Shown here in pieces: positions 12,241 through 17,727 of a stretch of 64,000 nt of DNA; position 1 is the first letter of the stretch, and the number at the start of each line of letters is the position of its first letter. Both the position numbers and the translations under genes were made by a program. Source of the stretch: Candidatus Poribacteria bacterium (lineage in GTDB: Bacteria > Poribacteria > WGA-4E > WGA-3G); contig OZ244048.1 in assembly GCA_965215265.1 (NCBI GenBank), forward strand, positions 608,001 to 672,000, given 5' to 3'. The notes below the pieces were generated by a model that was not told the DNA's origin, did no database searches, and worked only from the letters and a program-made list of their open reading frames with translations.

Positions 12241-14049
12241 TTAAGAAATTAAGGGGTTTTTCACCTTTTGTCTCGAATCCGGTGCGGTTGGAATGCAGGT
12301 CGCAATCTGATATGCGTATCCGTCGCGTTTCTGGATTTTGCGAAGTTGTTTGATATTGCCACCGACGCGATCGTCTCCGTCCCACGATTTTTTTACACGC
12401 AGTTTTTGAGGTTTTCCTTCAGATGTTTTATCAAACGAGTTGATATGTCCCACAACTTTCCCTTTGTGTGTGAGCATTTCGACCATATCCAGTTTTTGAA
12501 AACCGCCCGCGTGTTCAACACGCGTATAAGGTCGTTTGAATCCGGGCGCGGTCTGCTTTGTTTGGCAATTGCCTAAATCTCTGCGATGCCCGTATCCTAC
12601 TGCATGGATACCTAGCACAGAAAGCGGCATGTTTGGCAGTTTGACAACCCCTGCGACACACGCTGCATCATAGTAGTGTGTTTTTGGCAACCCCGCTTGT
12701 GAACGATGATATTTCGTTTTTCCACCGGTGCCACAGAAGACTTCAAGCCCCGTCGCTTTTAGCGTCTCTACAATCTTCCAACGAATCGTGTTGACTGCGG
12801 CAGCATCCTTTAGCGGTTTTTTGGCAGCTGCTGATGCTTTTTTCACACGTTCCGCAAAATCTTTACCATGTTCCTCTTCATTTATCTCATCAGGGTGTAG
12901 GTTACCTTTTTTGGTATTACACGGGCCACATGACAATGTCAGGTTATCCACACGGTTTGTACCTCCTTTCGCTTTCGGGATAATATGCTCTATTTCGAGA
13001 GGCACGTTCTTTTCCTTGCAATAATAACATTTCCGACCGAACTTCTCAAGTAGGTATTCCCGTATTTCATATCCTTGAAGTTTACCCTGTTGGTATTCCT
13101 CTCCCGATATTTTAGAGTTATCCATCAGTTGCATATCAAACTTCACGTGTTCAACTGCTAGCTTTTTGATAGGATAAAGCTTTGAAAGCCTGTTCACCCA
13201 TGTCGCGATATTATAGATACGTGACATCAAGGATGGTGCTACCCAACCATTATCGGGGTTCTCTTCTTTTTCGATAAAAGAAAAATATAATTGCGGTTCT
13301 TCACGGCGGTTGCGCTTTTGGGCGTTGCTATATTCACGTTTTAAGACACGCCGCCACCTTTTCTTTACAGAATGCTTTTTCGGGCTATAGGTGTACACCT
13401 TTTTTGGATAACGCTTTTTATACTGCTTATGTGCCTCGTTATTGCTATTATAGCGATAATATTTACCTCCTTTTTCATAGTAAATATCGCCAGTACGCAT
13501 GCGTTTCCCGTTGGCGTAATAGAGCCGTGTCTTCTCTCTATGTTTTGCAGGCGAAGGGCGTAACCGCGTCCACTCGTAACGCTTATCTTTCAGCATGGCA
13601 TCGCTGACACGATGGAATGTGTTTTCCGTTTTCCGGGTATTCTTGACTTTTTCATATATCCACTGCCCGTTTACAAGGCGAGGACTCTGACGAGAACGGT
13701 TATCAAATCGGGGGGCACGGTGACGACAGTTCCGAGTCCGCCTACTCCGACGATGCCCGCTTCTATCCGACAACGCTTTCTTAATGCTTTTCCGGTGATG
13801 CAACTCAAAAAAAGCAACGACGGTGTTCTCTGAATCTGTAATCGCCATGCCAGTGCATTTTGAGCCAGGGTCAATTGAGAGGGTATAGTCGCCTGTTTGT
13901 GACTCAGGCACCTCAAGTTTCAAGATAATGGTGAATGGATAACGTTTGTAGACCGCAGCCTTCTCCTCGCGAAGTAAACGCCTCGCAACAGCAGGATGGC
14001 ACGGTTCTAATACGCGTTTCTTTGTATCTAATACAGGAACTTTTGACAT
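12241..14049 (-). CDS. iscB: CRISPR-associated IscB (RRXRR/RuvC/HNH RNA-guided endonuclease) with a large REC-position insertion
   Basis: PLMP-like N-terminus (VPVLD..LEPCHPAVARRLL..YPFTIIL); RuvC-I SIDPGSK (D60); Arg-rich bridge helix RRSRRTR..RFDNR; RuvC-II VEHVKFD (E300); HNH CYYC..EIEHIIPKAKGGTNRVDNLTLSCGPCN (H355); RuvC-III THYYDA (H458/D461). Confidence 0.93.
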   Translation of the reverse strand: MSKVPVLDTKKRVLEPCHPAVARRLLREEKAAVYKRYPFTIILKLEVPESQTGDYTLSIDPGSKCTGMAITDSENTVVAFFELHHRKSIKKALSDRSGHRRSRRTRNCRHRAPRFDNRSRQSPRLVNGQWIYEKVKNTRKTENTFHRVSDAMLKDKRYEWTRLRPSPAKHREKTRLYYANGKRMRTGDIYYEKGGKYYRYNSNNEAHKQYKKRYPKKVYTYSPKKHSVKKRWRRVLKREYSNAQKRNRREEPQLYFSFIEKEENPDNGWVAPSLMSRIYNIATWVNRLSKLYPIKKLAVEHVKFDMQLMDNSKISGEEYQQGKLQGYEIREYLLEKFGRKCYYCKEKNVPLEIEHIIPKAKGGTNRVDNLTLSCGPCNTKKGNLHPDEINEEEHGKDFAERVKKASAAAKKPLKDAAAVNTIRWKIVETLKATGLEVFCGTGGKTKYHRSQAGLPKTHYYDAACVAGVVKLPNMPLSVLGIHAVGYGHRRDLGNCQTKQTAPGFKRPYTRVEHAGGFQKLDMVEMLTHKGKVVGHINSFDKTSEGKPQKLRVKKSWDGDDRVGGNIKQLRKIQKRDGYAYQIATCIPTAPDSRQKVKNPLIS

Positions 14050-14055
14050 AATGTC

Positions 14056-14256
14056 CTCTACTTTCGCAAGTAGGTAATGTAAGCCTCGATAATGTTAGTA
14101 TCGCTTTTGGGTCAAGGTTGACTGCGTATTGTACAGCTGTTTACAGAGCCTCCACAGAGCCTCAGACTGGCTTATGTATCCAAGGGTGTGATAACGAAAC
14201 TAACGTAGTTAAAAACTAAATCTTGATTACACTGTAGCCTACTTTTGTGTCGCAAC
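14056..14256 (-). ncRNA. tracrRNA-like omegaRNA (HEARO scaffold with 5' anti-repeat)
   Basis: Minus strand carries HEARO-like motifs CTACGTT (14202-14208), CACACCCTTGGA..GCCAGTCTGAGGCTCTG and AACATTATCGAGG (14084-14096). Pairable stems: GTTAGTTTCG/CGATACTAAC, CCTTGGA/TCTGAGG, TAAGCC/GGCTTA. Its 5' part (14225-14256) is complementary to the CRISPR repeat. Confidence 0.85.
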
Positions 14257-14260
14257 TTTT

Positions 14261-14304
14261 GCCGTCAACCTCCCAATAAAAATACATTATTGGGGGTCGA
14301 CTGC
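14261..14304 (-). other. Hairpin GTCGAC...GTTGAC between array and anti-repeat (possible relic omegaRNA 5' stem / IS200-IS605 end)
   Basis: Minus strand reads gcaGTCGACCCCCAATAA-tgtatt-TTTATTGGGAGGTTGACggc. Confidence 0.55.
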
Positions 14305-14350
14305 AAACTCTTCACGCTGGAGCTATACGCTCACTGCGTTCTCACATAGC

Positions 14351-16177
14351 GTTGCAACCTAAGCAAGCTACAGCGTAAACTCAAAATATGCTACAATACT
14401 AATATCAATTAAGAAGTTGCAACCTAAGCAAGCTACAGCGTAAACGCGTTAAGAGCGTTCGGATTCGTTGTCAAACAAATGTTGCAACCTAAGCAAGCTA
14501 CAGCGTAAACCAGGCAGCATATAACAAGTTCGCACTGTTATCAGATAGTTGCAACCTAAGCAAGCTACAGCGTAAACGAAGCCCTTTTCATACTAACAGA
14601 TGAAAGCAAACGGGTTGCAACCTAAGCAAGCTACAGCGTAAACGTATTCTATGATATGCCAACCGTGGATGCGGTTTGTGTTGCAACCTAAGCAAGCTAC
14701 AGCGTAAACTGCTACGAGGTTTTTCATATTGAAAGCATGACGCAGGTTGCAACCTAAGCAAGCTACAGCGTAAACTAAACCGAATGCTATGACTACTAAC
14801 GTCATGCCAGCGTTGCAACCTAAGCAAGCTACAGCGTAAACTACGTACGATCCACTGTGCATACGTCTGCCCAGGGATCGTTGCAACCTAAGCAAGCTAC
14901 AGCGTAAACGAGGGTTACCTTTTCTGAAATCATTTCATCCCCCCAATGGTTGCAACCTAAGCAAGCTACAGCGTAAACTGAAGCCCTTTTCATACTAACA
15001 GATGAAAGCAAACGGTTGCAACCTAAGCAAGCTACAGCGTAAACAGTAACCCAATCAGCCAGCTGCAGCACACACTGCAGCGTTGCAACCTAAGCAAGCT
15101 ACAGCGTAAACTATTACACAAGCGCGTTGGGAGAGCAAACTGAAAGAGTTGCAACCTAAGCAAGCTACAGCGTAAACTTGATTGAGTATCTCAACTTCAT
15201 TCGTTGGCCATACAGTTGCAACCTAAGCAAGCTACAGCGTAAACACAGAAGCGTCGCCTGATGAAATCCGTAAGGTCCAAAGTTGCAACCTAAGCAAGCT
15301 ACAGCGTAAACCGCGTCCTCGAAAGGATCCACGGTGAATCTGCTCTGGTTGCAACCTAAGCAAGCTACAGCGTAAACTGCTCTCTTTCTGCTCTTATAGC
15401 ATCGACTGTGTCTGTGTTGCAACCTAAGCAAGCTACAGCGTAAACTTAGATATGCAAATGAAAGCTGGCATGCTTGATTCTAAGTTGCAACCTAAGCAAG
15501 CTACAGCGTAAACTTTACGATTTTGAGAACTGTCGGCTGGTATCATGAACGTTGCAACCTAAGCAAGCTACAGCGTAAACCTCGCTACGTCAACCCCGAC
15601 GGCACGCAATGTCTCTGGTTGCAACCTAAGCAAGCTACAGCGTAAACCTTGCAAGGATATTCTCATTAAATTCACTTATTGGAGTTGCAACCTAAGCAAG
15701 CTACAGCGTAAACATGTAGGATATGAGATTGCCTGCTTCGTGTGCCTCGTTGCAACCTAAGCAAGCTACAGCGTAAACTACTTCAATGTTTCGATCGGTT
15801 CGTATCCTGCGGCCTGTTGCAACCTAAGCAAGCTACAGCGTAAACATCGGAAAGGGGGATACGCTGAAGTTGACAGAACACGTTGCAACCTAAGCAAGCT
15901 ACAGCGTAAACATGAAAAAGATTTTTCATCTCAACCGTCCTTTTGAAAGTTGCAACCTAAGCAAGCTACAGCGTAAACTTACTGTAGTATCCTTCGATTT
16001 CCGCAACTTCTGCCGTTGCAACCTAAGCAAGCTACAGCGTAAACTCTTTTGACTTTACCGTATCCTTGTGTCCGTTTTTTAGTTGCAACCTAAGCAAGCT
16101 ACAGCGTAAACGCATTACGCCCAACCCACACAAGCAACGATTCTGACGCTGTAACATAAGCAGGCTACCACGTAAAC
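14351..16177 (-). CRISPR. CRISPR array: 28 repeats (27 identical, 1 degenerate at 16148-16177), 27 spacers of 35-39 nt
   Basis: 30-bp repeat GTTGCAACCTAAGCAAGCTACAGCGTAAAC on + (GTTTACGCTGTAGCTTGCTTAGGTTGCAAC as transcribed); strand assigned from the promoter at 16180-16208 and the G:U-compatible anti-repeat. Confidence 0.98.
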
Positions 16178-16179
16178 AT

Positions 16180-16208
16180 ATTATATCTTAACTTGCAAAA
16201 AAAGTCAA
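16180..16208 (-). promoter_or_regulatory. sigma70 promoter driving the CRISPR array toward the tracr-like RNA and iscB
   Basis: Minus-strand TTGACT (16203-16208)-N17-TATAAT (16180-16185); overlapped by inverted repeat TTAACTTG...CAAGTTAA (16188-16213). Confidence 0.8.
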
Positions 16209-16555
16209 GTTAAAGTTGCAGCCTCTCATTTACCCCCATTTTTTTTGAAGGTTTGTGGTGAAAGGTTTTTGTTTAGAAATGTGTGAGAAAAGCAGTGGGT
16301 TAGAGATACCCGAACCGGGTAAATCCCACATCTCTGATAACCCGTTTTCAAGACACCTTCAAGGCTTCTGGGACCTCCGCCCCTAGCCCGATGCCACCGG
16401 CACCGAAGACAGCAGCCCTCTGCTTGCAGGGAGACATGAGGTTACCATCAAAAATCTAAAAAAAGAGTGACTTTTTTTCCCATCTGTGTTATACTTCTTT
16501 GCGAGCCAAGTGGCAAACTGGAAAAATGCAGCTTGCGGCAGGCAGGTAAAAAACG

Positions 16556-16633
16556 ATGAAAAAGAATTTCACTACCATTCGGCTCTGGGATGTCAACACA
16601 GGCGAACCCCTCAAAACTCTCATGTCTGTCTAA
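16556..16633 (+). pseudogene. WD40-repeat gene remnant
   Basis: MKKNFTTIRLWDVNTGEPLKTLMSV*: a single WD40 fragment (TIRLWDVNTG..LKTL) ending at the Rpn stop codon. Confidence 0.55.
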
Positions 16634-17727
16634 GTGTGCAAGGCTTGTAGGAACGCTTCAAAACTGGGTGTCTCAACGGCGATGAGATGCAGCTGCTTGA
16701 GCCGCACCAGGTCTGGTATGGCTTCAAGGTGCGGTTGAGTCGTCTGCACGTCGCTCTGCGGGAACCGTGCGGTGAGCACCGTGATGACGTTTTCTATCGC
16801 ATTCCGGCGTGCACCTTGTTCAATGCCTTGCTCAATGCCTTGTTTGAGTCCTTGTTGCACCAGGACTTCTGCCATTGTCTCTGCCATCTGTTTTACCTCC
16901 ATCTTATCTTCTGCGAGTTGCTCCACTAATGCGACTAAGCCACTTTGTTCTGATAGCGGCCGACGATGCAAGATGAGTAGCAGGAAATAGACTATCGCCT
17001 CACGCCGCTGTTCGGCACCAACCGTATCAAACTCATCAAGGTGTGCTATCGCCGTGCGTAACGCATCCCGTATCTCCGCCTCGTCTGCTCTCTCTTTTTG
17101 CAGCACCGTCAAAAGCCACCCGAACGGATGATGCGTTTGAGTCAGTGTGGCGACATCGGTTTGCTTCACGCTCAAAAACAGCGTCTCAAAGGCAGGAACG
17201 AACCGGGCGAGTTCAGCAGGGATGTCCATCAGTGCCTCAAGTGTCAGCGGGGTTTTCCACTGCTGCTCGCCGGTATAAAACACAATCGGCAGTATCGGGG
17301 GCAACCGCCGCGCCGGTTTGGGCACCTTGTCGTGTTCCCATTGCCTGCGATGTGCGTCCCAAATCAGCATCATATAAAACAGCACCCGAAACCCCATCGT
17401 CGCATCCACCGTCGATTGATGTTCGACGAGCAGATAGATGAGCAGCGCCTCGGTGGCTGTCTCGGTTCTAAACGGGACGCGGAACACGCTATCCGCTTCC
17501 TGCTCCCGCAGCACTTCCGGCAGCAGGCTTCTCGGGAGTGGAACGAGTTGGCTAAAATCTATGCGTTCTGCGATGTCAGCGGCGACGATTTCTAGCACAC
17601 CCCGGACGTTTTCGCCGTTTTGTAGCAAGCGCCGCACACTTCTGTCGGCGAAGTGTTCAACGCGTCCATCAAGCAGCGCGCGGATATGCTGCATCTGCGT
17701 ATCCACGGCTTTGGTTTCTTGCGTCAT
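16630..17727 (-). CDS. Rpn family recombination-promoting nuclease / YhgA-like putative transposase
   Basis: EADSVF..IYLLVEHQSTVDATMGFRVLFY, LPPILPIVFYTGEQQW, C-terminal QGLKQGIEQGIEQG repeats. Confidence 0.9.
   Translation of the reverse strand: MTQETKAVDTQMQHIRALLDGRVEHFADRSVRRLLQNGENVRGVLEIVAADIAERIDFSQLVPLPRSLLPEVLREQEADSVFRVPFRTETATEALLIYLLVEHQSTVDATMGFRVLFYMMLIWDAHRRQWEHDKVPKPARRLPPILPIVFYTGEQQWKTPLTLEALMDIPAELARFVPAFETLFLSVKQTDVATLTQTHHPFGWLLTVLQKERADEAEIRDALRTAIAHLDEFDTVGAEQRREAIVYFLLLILHRRPLSEQSGLVALVEQLAEDKMEVKQMAETMAEVLVQQGLKQGIEQGIEQGARRNAIENVITVLTARFPQSDVQTTQPHLEAIPDLVRLKQLHLIAVETPSFEAFLQALHT

What the first reader, a model, noticed from the sequence alone, without database searches (positions are those of the whole stretch)
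14302..16208. Array polarity paradox: degenerate repeat at the promoter end and class 1-like spacers suggest an array read backwards and fed in trans
Seen: the only degenerate repeat (6 mismatches, 16148-16177) abuts the promoter, with the predicted start site inside it, while the tracr-proximal repeat is perfect. Spacers are 35-39 nt between 30-bp repeats, and the plus-strand repeat reads GTTGCA...GTAAAC. Established: degenerate repeats usually mark the oldest end; variable ~36-nt spacers with ~30-bp repeats ending in AAAC are typical of Cas4-containing class 1 adaptation rather than the ~30-nt spacers of type II; reversed polarity is known in some II-C arrays. Inference: new spacers enter at the 14351 end (leader about 14302-14350) via a Cas1-Cas2(-Cas4) encoded elsewhere. 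A 5' PAM chosen in plus orientation would become the 3' TAM IscB needs when the array is transcribed from the minus strand.
Basis: partly seen in the sequence, partly recalled or inferred. Interest (0 to 1): 0.8.

Follow-up and report, generated by a model that had tools for sequence, protein, structure and literature searches.

The report
IscB array fed by type I-B
A small Cas9-ancestor nuclease (IscB) sits beside a CRISPR array that seems to be read towards the end where new spacers enter, and that end resembles the leader of the genome's separate type I-B system, which probably supplies its spacers.

Summary
There are 28 repeats of 30 bp and 27 spacers of 35-39 nt. The only degenerate repeat (6 mismatches, 16148-16177) lies 2 nt from a minus-strand TTGACT-17-TATAAT promoter.

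The array belongs to a CRISPR-associated IscB: a 602-aa ORF (12241-14049, minus) and a HEARO/omega RNA. The omega RNA carries an anti-repeat (14224-14257) that pairs only with the minus-strand repeat RNA and co-varies with the repeat in relatives.

The IscB-proximal flank (14262-14350) is a shortened copy of the type I-B leader of this bacterial family: the same about 50-nt hairpin, the same orientation and a similar leader-repeat junction.

In 13 of 13 related arrays the IscB-proximal repeat is the consensus. In 11 of 13 the decayed repeats are distal. Orthologous arrays in four species share only a distal spacer.

One spacer (15045-15081) matches a spacer of the genome's I-B array at 36 of 37 positions, with the same ends and orientation. 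Cas1, Cas2 and Cas4 lie 98 kb away.

Not settled: no RNA data, the contig comparison of strains was ambiguous, and the TAM is unknown. I-B protospacers show 5'-(C/A)CN, but only 1 of 3 IscB-array protospacers clearly fits.

Verdict: a new variant of a known kind.

The parts
12241..14049 (-). IscB-like RNA-guided nuclease, 602 aa (P0001)
   Evidence: Pfam RRXRR 9e-57 and HNH 2e-12. The best solved relatives are IscB proteins: TbaIscB 1e-35, OgeuIscB 1.5e-22.
14074..14224 (-). omega RNA (HEARO) core scaffold
   Evidence: Rfam HEARO hit 14074-14301, 75.6 bits (gathering score 83), E 2e-14. The alignment is good from here on and poor in the 5' stem. Conserved in relatives.
14224..14257 (-). anti-repeat (tracr-like part of the omega RNA)
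   Evidence: RNAduplex with the minus-strand repeat -38.1 kcal/mol over all 30 nt, against -21.1 for the plus-strand repeat and -20 to -23.5 for the tracr regions of other loci. Pairs in cis in the minimum-energy fold.
14262..14308 (+). hairpin shared with type I-B leaders (GTCAACCTCC...GGGGGTCGACTGCAA). In the minus-strand RNA it lies in the loop between repeat 1 and the anti-repeat.
   Evidence: Aligns with the I-B leaders of 5 genomes that carry IscB arrays and 8 more I-B leaders of the family, in the same orientation relative to the array. The same-genome pair in G030 has a 27-nt exact match.
14309..14350 (+). leader-proximal segment ending ..CACATAGC at the junction with repeat 1
   Evidence: The I-B leaders end ..GATAGC before their repeat 1. 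No plus-strand promoter is present here.
14351..16177 (-). CRISPR array, 28 repeats and 27 spacers; transcribed on the minus strand (inferred)
14351..14380 (.). perfect IscB-proximal repeat, proposed site of repeat duplication and spacer entry
   Evidence: inference
14578..14613 (.). spacer 4, same protospacer as spacer 10 shifted by 1 nt
   Evidence: 35 of 35 identical, offset 1
14979..15014 (.). spacer 10, see spacer 4
15045..15081 (+). spacer 11, shared with spacer 96 of the genome's type I-B array (G000:C1:530608-530644)
   Evidence: 36 of 37 identical, positions 1-37 on 1-37, same orientation
16148..16177 (.). degenerate terminal repeat (6 mismatches), the old end of the array
16180..16208 (-). 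sigma-70-like promoter TTGACT-17-TATAAT reading into the array
   Evidence: 11 of 12 matches

Best explanation
This is a CRISPR-associated IscB system whose array has the leader of a class 1 (type I-B) array, placed between the array and the omega RNA.

Expression (inferred): transcription starts at the far end (promoter 16208-16180) and runs on the minus strand through the array, the leader remnant, the anti-repeat and the omega RNA towards iscB. Each minus-strand repeat can pair with the anti-repeat at 14257-14224. In cis, repeat 1 and the anti-repeat form a long stem whose loop holds the leader and its hairpin. Spacer 1 then occupies the guide position of a natural single-guide RNA.

Adaptation (inferred): new spacers are integrated at the leader-repeat 1 junction (14350/14351) by Cas1-Cas2-Cas4 of the type I-B locus 98 kb away. 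That complex recognises the leader remnant. The PAM-side end of each spacer then faces the leader. In the minus-strand RNA this end is the 3', repeat-adjacent end, so a 5'-(C/A)CN acquisition motif becomes a 3' N-G-(G/T) target-adjacent motif for IscB.

Shown: the anatomy, the anti-repeat complementarity and its covariation, the leader homology, the polarity of repeat decay in relatives, the shared spacer, and the presence of the cas genes.

Inferred: the transcript, its processing, the integration site, which Cas1 acts, and the TAM.
For: 1. IscB and omega RNA lie on the minus strand.
2. The minus-strand repeat pairs with the anti-repeat at -38.1 kcal/mol, against -21.1 for the plus-strand repeat. 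Own-locus values stand well above cross-locus values for G000, less clearly for G033 and G010b, whose similar repeats cross-pair (-34 to -35). The cis fold has z = -4.98, with 0 of 100 shuffles as stable.
3. A promoter with 11 of 12 matches and no terminator-like site in 13900-16700. Minus-strand promoters lie within 170 nt of the distal end in 5 of 6 loci, and no plus-strand promoter lies in any of the 6 proximal flanks.
4. The proximal repeat is the consensus in 13 of 13 multi-repeat arrays, and the most diverged repeats are distal in 11 of 13. In G116 the four proximal repeats share a substitution that the next three and the sister species lack.
5. The 27 identical repeats cannot have been copied from the 6-mismatch distal repeat (logic).
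6. Four orthologous arrays have the same flanks and share no spacer except G133 spacer 3 with G116 spacer 7 (18 of 18 nt), both near the distal end.
7. The proximal flank carries the I-B leader hairpin and a similar junction. The hairpin is also in the I-B leaders of genomes where no CRISPR-IscB was found.
8. Spacer 11 matches I-B spacer 96 at 36 of 37 positions, with the same ends and strand. Spacers 11 and 15 also overlap I-B spacers 11 and 123.
9. Spacer lengths have mode 36, as in the I-B array; the I-D array has mode 39.
10. The only Cas1 genes of the genome are at C1:522674 (type I-B, with Cas4 and Cas2) and C1:1468732 (type I-D Cas4-Cas1).
11. Arrays have 13-28 repeats (and one of 6) in the 6 genomes with an I-B-type Cas1, and 4-9 repeats in the 3 genomes without one.
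12. I-B protospacers on G114:C3 have C at -2 in 7 of 8.
Against: - There are no RNA data, so the strand, the start and the processing are all inferred.
- The number of promoter-like sites in the region is not above the shuffle expectation (2 against 2.5).
- The repeat is only 15 of 30 identical to the I-B repeat, and 12 of 30 in the other orientation. The leader remnant lacks about 50 nt of the I-B leader, so recognition by I-B Cas1-Cas2 is not assured.
- Shared spacers were found only in G000. Five same-genome searches with the IscB arrays of G033, G007, G030 and G010 (two arrays) found none.
- G116 keeps a 9-repeat array without any Cas1 hit, G124 has only the I-D-type fusion and G133 only a Cas1 fragment.
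- The repeat variants in G124 and L173 do not follow a simple proximal-copy order.
- In the contig comparison, runs X4, X6 and X7 show depth over the proximal bins and none in the middle of the array. If that depth is real spacer cover, the strains share proximal spacers, which fast proximal turnover would not predict.
- Of 3 IscB-array protospacers with flanks, the 5' flanks are GCA, CGC (CCG if the boundary is moved by 1 nt) and AGG. The two from G010 both have CGG on the 3' side instead.
Confidence: 0.6

Rival explanations
1. Fossil array. The array and leader remnant were captured from a type I-B locus in an ancestor and no longer take up spacers in this genome. IscB uses a fixed set of old guides.
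For: No cas1, cas2 or cas4 lies in the window. The repeat is only 50% identical to the I-B repeat. The leader is truncated. G116 keeps an array without any Cas1. No protospacer for any of the 27 spacers was found in phages, plasmids or 112 family genomes. Probes of four of the spacers found nothing in IMG/VR, and one of them found nothing in JGI metagenomes.
Against: There are 27 identical repeats. Two independent acquisitions of one protospacer are shifted by 1 nt. Orthologous arrays in four species have wholly different proximal spacers. Run X6 holds a 37-nt spacer flanked by this repeat that is absent from the window. Arrays are long where an I-B Cas1 is present.
Confidence: 0.15
2. The array is fed by the type I-D module (Cas4-Cas1 fusion and Cas2 at C1:1468273-1470222), or by both modules, rather than by type I-B.
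For: The I-D module is present and looks intact. G124 has an IscB array and only this kind of Cas1.
Against: The leader homology is with the I-B leader. The shared spacer is in the I-B array; the comparison of all three arrays found no match between an IscB-array spacer and an I-D spacer. The I-D array has 36-37-nt repeats and longer spacers, mode 39.
Confidence: 0.1
3. Canonical polarity. The leader is the promoter region beyond 16177, and new spacers enter there. The first repeat is degenerate only because in a Cas9-like crRNA (spacer followed by repeat) the repeat upstream of the first spacer is never used.
For: The promoter is there. The distal repeat is indeed dispensable for minus-strand crRNAs (logic).
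Against: New repeats are copied from the leader-adjacent repeat, but the 27 repeats differ from it at 6 positions. The distal flank has no likeness to any leader, while the proximal one does. Decay is graded over several distal repeats in G116, G131 and G007. The only spacer shared between species is distal.
Confidence: 0.05
4. The array is a class 1 array read on the plus strand and used by the type I-B or III-A effectors. Its place beside IscB is incidental, or the array serves both.
For: Class 1-like geometry and an I-B-like leader. The genome has I-B and III-A effector genes.
Against: The promoter block of the I-B leader is missing, and no plus-strand promoter was found in any of the 6 proximal flanks. 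The repeat differs from the I-B repeat. The anti-repeat co-varies with the repeat. An array upstream of IscB recurs in 11 of 16 loci titled Poribacteria, and 3 more keep 1-2 repeats.
Confidence: 0.07

Closest known systems
CRISPR-associated IscB (Altae-Tran et al. 2021, recalled, paper not held; DelIscB, PMC12660989, passages read)
   Same: A small IscB with a non-coding RNA upstream of the ORF. The RNA holds spacers, repeats and an anti-repeat. The repeat:anti-repeat hairpin has a loop of about 100 nt that could be cut out. No adaptation genes lie in the locus (recalled for Altae-Tran).
   Different: Here the loop is identified as a truncated type I-B leader, one spacer is shared with the I-B array, and polarity is inferred from 13 related arrays. 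The passages I read say that processing is an open question and do not discuss where spacers come from. This protein has 602 aa, DelIscB 457.
Type II-C CRISPR arrays (as described in PMC8092290, passages read)
   Same: The array is transcribed towards the variable (leader) end. The PAM-side end of the spacers faces the leader, so the interference motif lies 3' of the target.
   Different: II-C arrays use promoters inside each repeat (per that paper) and have their own Cas1-Cas2, with Cas9 choosing the PAM. Here there is one promoter at the old end, no local adaptation genes, and an IscB with a PLMP/RRXRR domain instead of Cas9.
Adaptation in trans between CRISPR types (type VI-B fed by II-C Cas1 in Flavobacterium columnare, PMC8092290; III-B by type I and IV-A3 by I-E, as cited there)
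   Same: An array without its own adaptation genes shares spacers and acquisition features with a co-resident system, although the repeats differ.
   Different: The donor is a class 1, Cas4-containing I-B module and the receiver is an IscB (pre-type II) array read in the opposite direction. It is supported here by sequence only, not by a cas1 deletion.
Type II-D (Cas9d) systems (PMC9755519, passages read)
   Same: Compact effectors next to arrays and tracrRNAs, only rarely with cas1, cas2 or cas4 in the operon.
   Different: Cas9d has a recognition lobe and lacks the IscB N-terminal domain. No leader analysis was reported in the passages read.
Type I-B CRISPR array of the same genome (G000:C1:524241-535579)
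   Same: 30-bp repeats, spacers with mode 36 nt, the leader hairpin, the leader-repeat junction ..ATAGC, the degenerate repeat at the leader-distal end, and one shared spacer.
   Different: The repeat sequence is only 15 of 30 identical. The leader lacks the A-rich and promoter block. There are no adjacent cas genes, and the array is read from the other end.

Membership tests
IscB / OMEGA RNA-guided nuclease | N-terminal PLMP (RRXRR) domain, split RuvC with an inserted HNH | tested here: met
   Pfam RRXRR 9e-57 (residues 4-141) and HNH 2e-12 (341-389). The best PDB sequence matches are IscB proteins. The motifs SIDPGSK, EIEH...N and THYYDA are visible in the translation; that they are catalytic is recalled.
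IscB / OMEGA RNA-guided nuclease | omega RNA (HEARO) directly upstream on the same strand | tested here: inconclusive
   Rfam HEARO at 14074-14301 (minus), E 2e-14, but 75.6 bits against a gathering score of 83. The 5' stem is badly aligned, and that part is the I-B-leader hairpin.
IscB / OMEGA RNA-guided nuclease | RNA-guided, TAM-dependent DNA cleavage | not testable with these tools
   Needs a cleavage or depletion assay.
CRISPR-associated IscB | CRISPR array upstream of the omega RNA, with a repeat:anti-repeat duplex | tested here: met
   28 repeats; duplex -38.1 kcal/mol, co-varying; cis fold.
Type II CRISPR-Cas (Cas9) | Cas9 effector with a REC lobe and no PLMP domain | tested here: not met
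   602 aa with an RRXRR/PLMP domain. Cas9 chains score far below IscB chains.
Type II CRISPR-Cas (Cas9) | cas1 and cas2 in the locus | tested here: not met
   The only Cas1 hits in the genome are at C1:522674 and C1:1468732, both outside the window.
Type I-B CRISPR array | repeat of the I-B family next to I-B cas genes | tested here: not met
   15 of 30 identity to the I-B repeat. The nearest I-B genes are 98 kb away.
Type I-B CRISPR array | I-B leader upstream of repeat 1 | tested here: inconclusive
   The hairpin and the junction are shared, while the promoter block of about 50 nt is missing.
Array adapted in trans by another system's Cas1-Cas2 | spacers with the same ends, orientation and acquisition motif as the donor's array | tested here: inconclusive
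   1 of 27 spacers is shared with the same ends. The I-B motif is C at -2 in 7 of 8. IscB-array protospacers: 1 fits, 1 is ambiguous, 1 does not fit.
Array adapted in trans by another system's Cas1-Cas2 | loss of acquisition when the donor cas1 is removed | not testable with these tools
   Needs genetics or reconstitution.

The most novel reading that the evidence does not exclude
In this bacterial family an IscB/omega RNA has fused with the leader-repeat unit of a class 1 (type I-B) array, so that the leader lies inside the loop of the guide RNA's repeat:anti-repeat stem. Every spacer that the I-B Cas1-Cas2-Cas4 inserts at that leader lands directly in the guide position of a natural single-guide RNA. 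The I-B 5'-CCN-type acquisition motif is read by IscB as a 3' NGG-type TAM. Loci with 1, 2, 4 to 9 and 13 to 28 repeats would then be stages of one route by which a transposon nuclease gained adaptive memory. That route would also explain the reversed polarity of type II-C arrays and the CCN/NGG mirror between class 1 and type II.
Probability: 0.4. Interest if true: 0.85.

Novelty: new variant of a known kind. Interest (0 to 1): 0.72.

Why it matters
CRISPR-associated IscBs are regarded as intermediates between transposon nucleases and Cas9. How their arrays obtain spacers, and how the RNA is made, is stated to be open in the one experimental paper I could read (PMC12660989).

This locus and its relatives give a concrete, testable answer: a borrowed class 1 leader, adaptation in trans, and transcription towards the leader.

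If the answer holds, it shows that a class 2 effector can live off class 1 adaptation. It predicts the TAM, N-G-(G/T). It also offers a step-by-step model for the origin of type II systems.

It has a practical side as well. It defines a compact natural single-guide design and says which part of the loop is dispensable for the RNA but needed for adaptation.

Tried and rejected
RNA evidence: no RNA holder is listed for window:12241-16300, so the strand and the processing could not be tested.

Read laying gave contigs only. Contigs break at every repeat, so spacer order cannot be read.
- Runs X4, X6 and X7 have no depth over about 14833/14692 to 15678/15819/15960. They keep distal bins in a nested way (X6 from 15679, X4 from 15820, X7 from about 16083 with 8 differences).
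- They also show depth over the proximal bins. I could not tell whether that is real spacer cover or repeat-only placement of contigs that carry other spacers. I therefore draw no conclusion on which end varies.
- X6 has depth of 21,933-108,669 over 13987-14268, against 42.8 on the iscB ORF. Adapter letters are joined at 14111, 14184, 14220 and 14259. This looks like an RNA-derived library, but the run is not on record as RNA and contigs cannot show ends, so it is only a lead.

Protospacer searches that found nothing:
- the IscB array against phages (only chance-level hits) and plasmids;
- the I-B array against phages;
- the window's array against 112 family genomes (best E 0.004);
- four spacer probes in IMG/VR;
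- the repeat and one spacer probe in JGI metagenomes;
- the arrays of G007 and G010a against the family.

The I-B array against the family was swamped by related I-B arrays (75 of 111 genomes) and gave no protospacer.

Shared spacers between IscB arrays and other arrays of the same genome: none in G033, G007, G030 or either G010 array. The pooled comparison of 141 IscB-array spacers with 2784 I-B spacers gave only the G000 pairs.

PAM from overlaps inside the G000 I-B array gave 5' flanks TCG, CTG and CCC, too few to use alone.

Repeat orientation from likeness to the I-B repeat is undecided: 10-15 of 30 either way.

I considered whether the hairpin at 14262-14308 is simply the HEARO 5' stem. 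I rejected that as the whole story, because the same hairpin stands in the I-B leaders of genomes without a detected CRISPR-IscB. The direction of transfer between omega RNA and leader remains open.

Literature:
- Altae-Tran et al. 2021 could not be read (not held). What I say of it is recalled.
- Supplements are closed. Supplementary Fig. 1 of PMC12660989 and the supplements of Altae-Tran may show array orientation or repeat families.
- Searches for prior work: Poribacteria with IscB: 0 papers; 5 papers, 4 listed, none on adaptation by title or abstract.
Full report
**What is in the sequence**

At 14351-16177 there are 28 copies of a 30-bp repeat. Twenty-seven are identical, and the last (16148-16177) has 6 substitutions. 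The 27 spacers measure 35-39 nt, with mode 36. The repeat occurs nowhere else in the 4.83-Mb genome at up to 8 substitutions.

Just beyond the degenerate repeat, on the minus strand, lies TTGACT-17-TATAAT (16208..16180, 11 of 12 matches). No terminator-like site was found in 13900-16700. The number of promoter-like sites in that stretch (2) is not above the shuffle expectation (2.5). The site counts because of its quality and position, not because it exists.

**Anatomy of the locus**

- The ORF 12241-14049 (minus, 602 aa) has the RRXRR/PLMP and HNH domains of IscB. Its best solved relatives are IscB proteins.
- Rfam's HEARO (omega RNA) model matches 14074-14301 on the minus strand. The E-value is 2e-14, but the score of 75.6 bits is below the gathering score of 83, and the 5' stem is poorly aligned.
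- Between the well-aligned core and that stem lies an anti-repeat (14257-14224). The minus-strand repeat RNA pairs with it over all 30 nt at -38.1 kcal/mol. The plus-strand repeat RNA reaches only -21.1 anywhere in the region.
- The G000 repeat scores -20 to -23.5 against the tracr regions of five related loci. G033 and G010b have own-locus values of -38.3 and -40.6 (their similar repeats also cross-pair at -34 to -35). G030, G010a and G007 have interrupted duplexes at -25 to -29.
- Folded as one RNA (14415 to 14060, minus), repeat 1 pairs with the anti-repeat in cis. The stem encloses a 94-nt loop that contains a hairpin (minimum free energy -115.2, z = -4.98, 0 of 100 shuffles as stable).
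- This is the design described for DelIscB: repeat, anti-repeat and a removable loop of about 100 nt (PMC12660989, passages read).

**Direction of reading**

The anti-repeat, the omega RNA and iscB are all on the minus strand. My own scan, using the tool's criteria, found minus-strand promoter-like sites within 170 nt outside the distal end in 5 of 6 loci. It found no plus-strand site in any of the 6 proximal flanks. No RNA run was available, so transcription is inferred.

**Polarity in relatives**

The family search found five IscB loci at 54-57% identity with arrays upstream of iscB. DNA searches with two of those arrays found four more loci, whose IscBs are 44-45% identical to P0001. The genome-contig scan gave 47 loci.
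- Sixteen of these loci carry titles naming Candidatus Poribacteria.
- Of those 16, 11 have an array of 3 or more repeats upstream of iscB, 3 have one or two repeats, 1 has an unrelated array on the other side and 1 is a cut contig.
- None of the other 31 loci has an array of 3 or more repeats.

Thirteen distinct multi-repeat arrays were examined, counting the window. The IscB-proximal repeat is the consensus in all 13. The most diverged repeats are at the distal end in 11 (for G010b the 29-nt degenerate copy was seen by eye). The exceptions are G133 (0,1,0,0) and L173 (0,0,0,1,1,1,0,1,0).

G116 reads 0,0,0,0,1,1,1,5,4. Its four proximal repeats share a T where the next three, and the sister species, have C. 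This is the pattern expected if new repeats are copied from the proximal one. G124 (0,0,1,1, then a 317-nt gap and a perfect copy) does not fit a simple order.

The four loci of genus g5 have the same flanks on both sides but share no spacer, with one exception. Spacer 3 of G133 (its last) matches spacer 7 of G116 (18 of 18 nt, the rest similar), and both are near the distal end.

In the window, the 27 identical repeats cannot be copies of the distal repeat, which differs at 6 positions.

**The proximal flank is a type I-B leader remnant**

The I-B arrays of G000, G007, G010, G030 and G033 have a hairpin about 95-140 nt upstream of repeat 1: GCCGTCAACCTCC..(loop)..GGAGGTCGAC(A/T)GCAA. The same hairpin, in the same orientation relative to the array, lies about 45 nt from repeat 1 in the IscB loci (window 14262-14308).
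- The G030 pair shares 27 nt exactly. In G000 itself the likeness is weaker and did not pass a whole-genome BLAST at E 1.
- The hairpin is a general part of I-B leaders in this family. It is present in G004, G006, G027, G072, G075, G080, G082 and G084. For G004, G006 and G027 the protein search found no CRISPR-type IscB.
- The I-B leader has an extra A-rich block with a plus-strand TTGACA-17-TATACT promoter. The IscB flank lacks it.
- The junctions are alike: I-B ..GATAGC|C, window ..CATAGC|G, several relatives ..TATAGG|G.

**Link to the I-B adaptation module**

The genome has two Cas1 genes, both outside the window.
- One belongs to a type III-A plus I-B cluster. This cluster has Cas8b1, Cas7, Cas5, Cas3, Cas4, Cas1b and an 87-aa Cas2, followed by a 170-repeat array at C1:524241-535579, 98 kb from the IscB array.
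- The other is a type I-D cluster with a Cas4-Cas1 fusion and Cas2. The I-B and I-D arrays carry their degenerate repeat at the end far from the cas genes.
- The I-B array has 30-bp repeats and spacers with mode 36, like the IscB array. The I-D array has longer repeats and spacers with mode 39 as I cut them.

IscB-array spacer 11 (15045-15081) matches I-B spacer 96 at 36 of 37 positions, from position 1 to 37 of both. The orientation is plus for the IscB repeat as written above and canonical for the I-B repeat. Repeats this different make transfer by recombination unlikely. Independent uptake of the same protospacer, with the same ends and strand, points to the same kind of integrase and the same leader side.

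Spacer 11 also overlaps I-B spacer 11 over 20 nt. Spacer 15 overlaps I-B spacer 123 on the other strand over 17 nt. Spacers 4 and 10 are the same protospacer shifted by 1 nt.

No shared spacers were found in five same-genome searches in relatives.

Arrays have 28, 27, 13, 21, 18, 20 and 6 repeats in the six genomes with an I-B-type Cas1. They have 9, 4(+1) and 4 repeats in G116 (no Cas1 hit), G124 (only the fusion) and G133 (a fragment). The sample is small and the genomes are related, so this is only suggestive.

**PAM and TAM**

An 80,316-bp contig of G114 (C3) carries protospacers of I-B spacers from several genomes.
- At E up to 1e-4, 9 I-B hits were found. I dropped one with 12 mismatches.
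- In the other 8, the base at -2 is C in 7, and the base at -3 is C in 4 and A in 3 (P about 2e-4 for the C at -2). The family's I-B acquisition motif is therefore 5'-(C/A)CN.
- Read on the minus strand, this would be a 3' N-G-(G/T) motif.

Only three reliable protospacers of IscB arrays were found. One is from G033, on the same contig C3, with 5' flank GCA, which fits at -2. Two are from the second G010 array and lie in chromosomal genes of the same MAG. Their 5' flanks are CGC (CCG if the boundary moves by 1 nt) and AGG, and both have CGG on the 3' side. This does not decide the matter.

**Comparison of strains**

The contig comparison of strains was ambiguous. It is described under Tried and rejected.

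**What is known**

CRISPR-associated IscBs are known (Altae-Tran 2021, recalled; PMC12660989). [quoted passage not shown] Adaptation in trans across types was shown for VI-B and II-C (PMC8092290, passages read). Cas9d loci mostly lack adaptation genes (PMC9755519).

Several points are not mentioned in any passage I read:
- the class 1 (I-B) leader inside the guide RNA's loop;
- a spacer shared with an I-B array;
- the series of loci with 1 to 28 repeats.

My searches found no paper on these points. I could not read the founding paper or any supplement.

**Mechanism proposed**

See Best explanation. Shown:
- the anatomy;
- the complementarity and its covariation;
- the leader homology;
- the polarity of decay;
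- the shared spacer;
- the cas gene content.

Inferred:
- the transcript and its processing;
- the integration site;
- the acting Cas1;
- the TAM.

I put about 0.75 on the polarity, about 0.6 on I-B as the donor, and 0.6 on the statement as a whole.

Noticed in passing
G000:C1:4319418-4320008 (outside the window): A second copy of the I-B leader (95% identical over about 230 nt, with hairpin and promoter) is joined at the same ..GATAGC junction to a different mini-array: 6 identical 29-nt repeats and spacers of 36-38 nt. One leader type thus stands before three different repeat families in this genome.
   Followed up: partly
window 12241-14049 (P0001, about residues 120-265): A K/R/Y-rich insert after the arginine-rich helix. 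It is absent from the nearest IscBs of about 450 aa (L160, L162, L165, L168) and present in the genus-g5 orthologues. It might be a rudimentary recognition lobe.
   Followed up: no
window 16243-17727: The ORF 16630-17727 (minus) is a YhgA-like Transposase_31. In all four runs the region 16243-17200 mostly has several to about 80 times the depth of the iscB gene, with many variants, so it is a multi-copy element bordering the old end of the array.
   Followed up: partly
window 13987-14379, run X6: Contig depth is 21,933-108,669 over the omega RNA, against 42.8 on the iscB ORF. Adapter letters are joined at 14111, 14184, 14220 and 14259, and 14259 is 2 nt before the anti-repeat. This suggests an RNA-derived library with a very abundant processed omega/tracr RNA. 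The run is not on record as RNA, and contigs cannot prove ends.
   Followed up: no
G114:C3 (80,316 bp; loci L207-L211): The contig carries protospacers of I-B spacers from several genomes of the family, including the I-B array of its own MAG, and of one IscB-array spacer of G033. It is probably a plasmid or phage of this bacterial family.
   Followed up: partly
L030 4266-4301 and 4332-4368 (second IscB array of G010): Two spacers match chromosomal genes of the same MAG: a dockerin-like gene at 36 of 36 and an HtrA-like protease at 36 of 37. Homologues occur in G007 and G002. These are self-derived spacers that are tolerated.
   Followed up: partly
L160, L165 (one repeat) and L162 (two repeats): The IscBs closest in sequence (65-74% in the best segment) keep repeat, leader, hairpin, anti-repeat and omega core, but with only 1-2 repeats. 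They are either collapsed arrays or the stage before an array.
   Followed up: partly
G000:C1:3910388-3910419 and 3910679-3910706: Two intergenic hairpins (GCCTGCTGCAGCACA.ACTGCAGCAGGC) between small genes. They match I-B spacer 11 over 28 nt, and IscB spacer 11 and I-B spacer 96 over 20 nt. The targeted element is related to something integrated in this genome.
   Followed up: no
G000:C1:535009-535081: One I-B 'spacer' is 73 nt long. It is probably two spacers with a lost or unrecognisable repeat between them.
   Followed up: no
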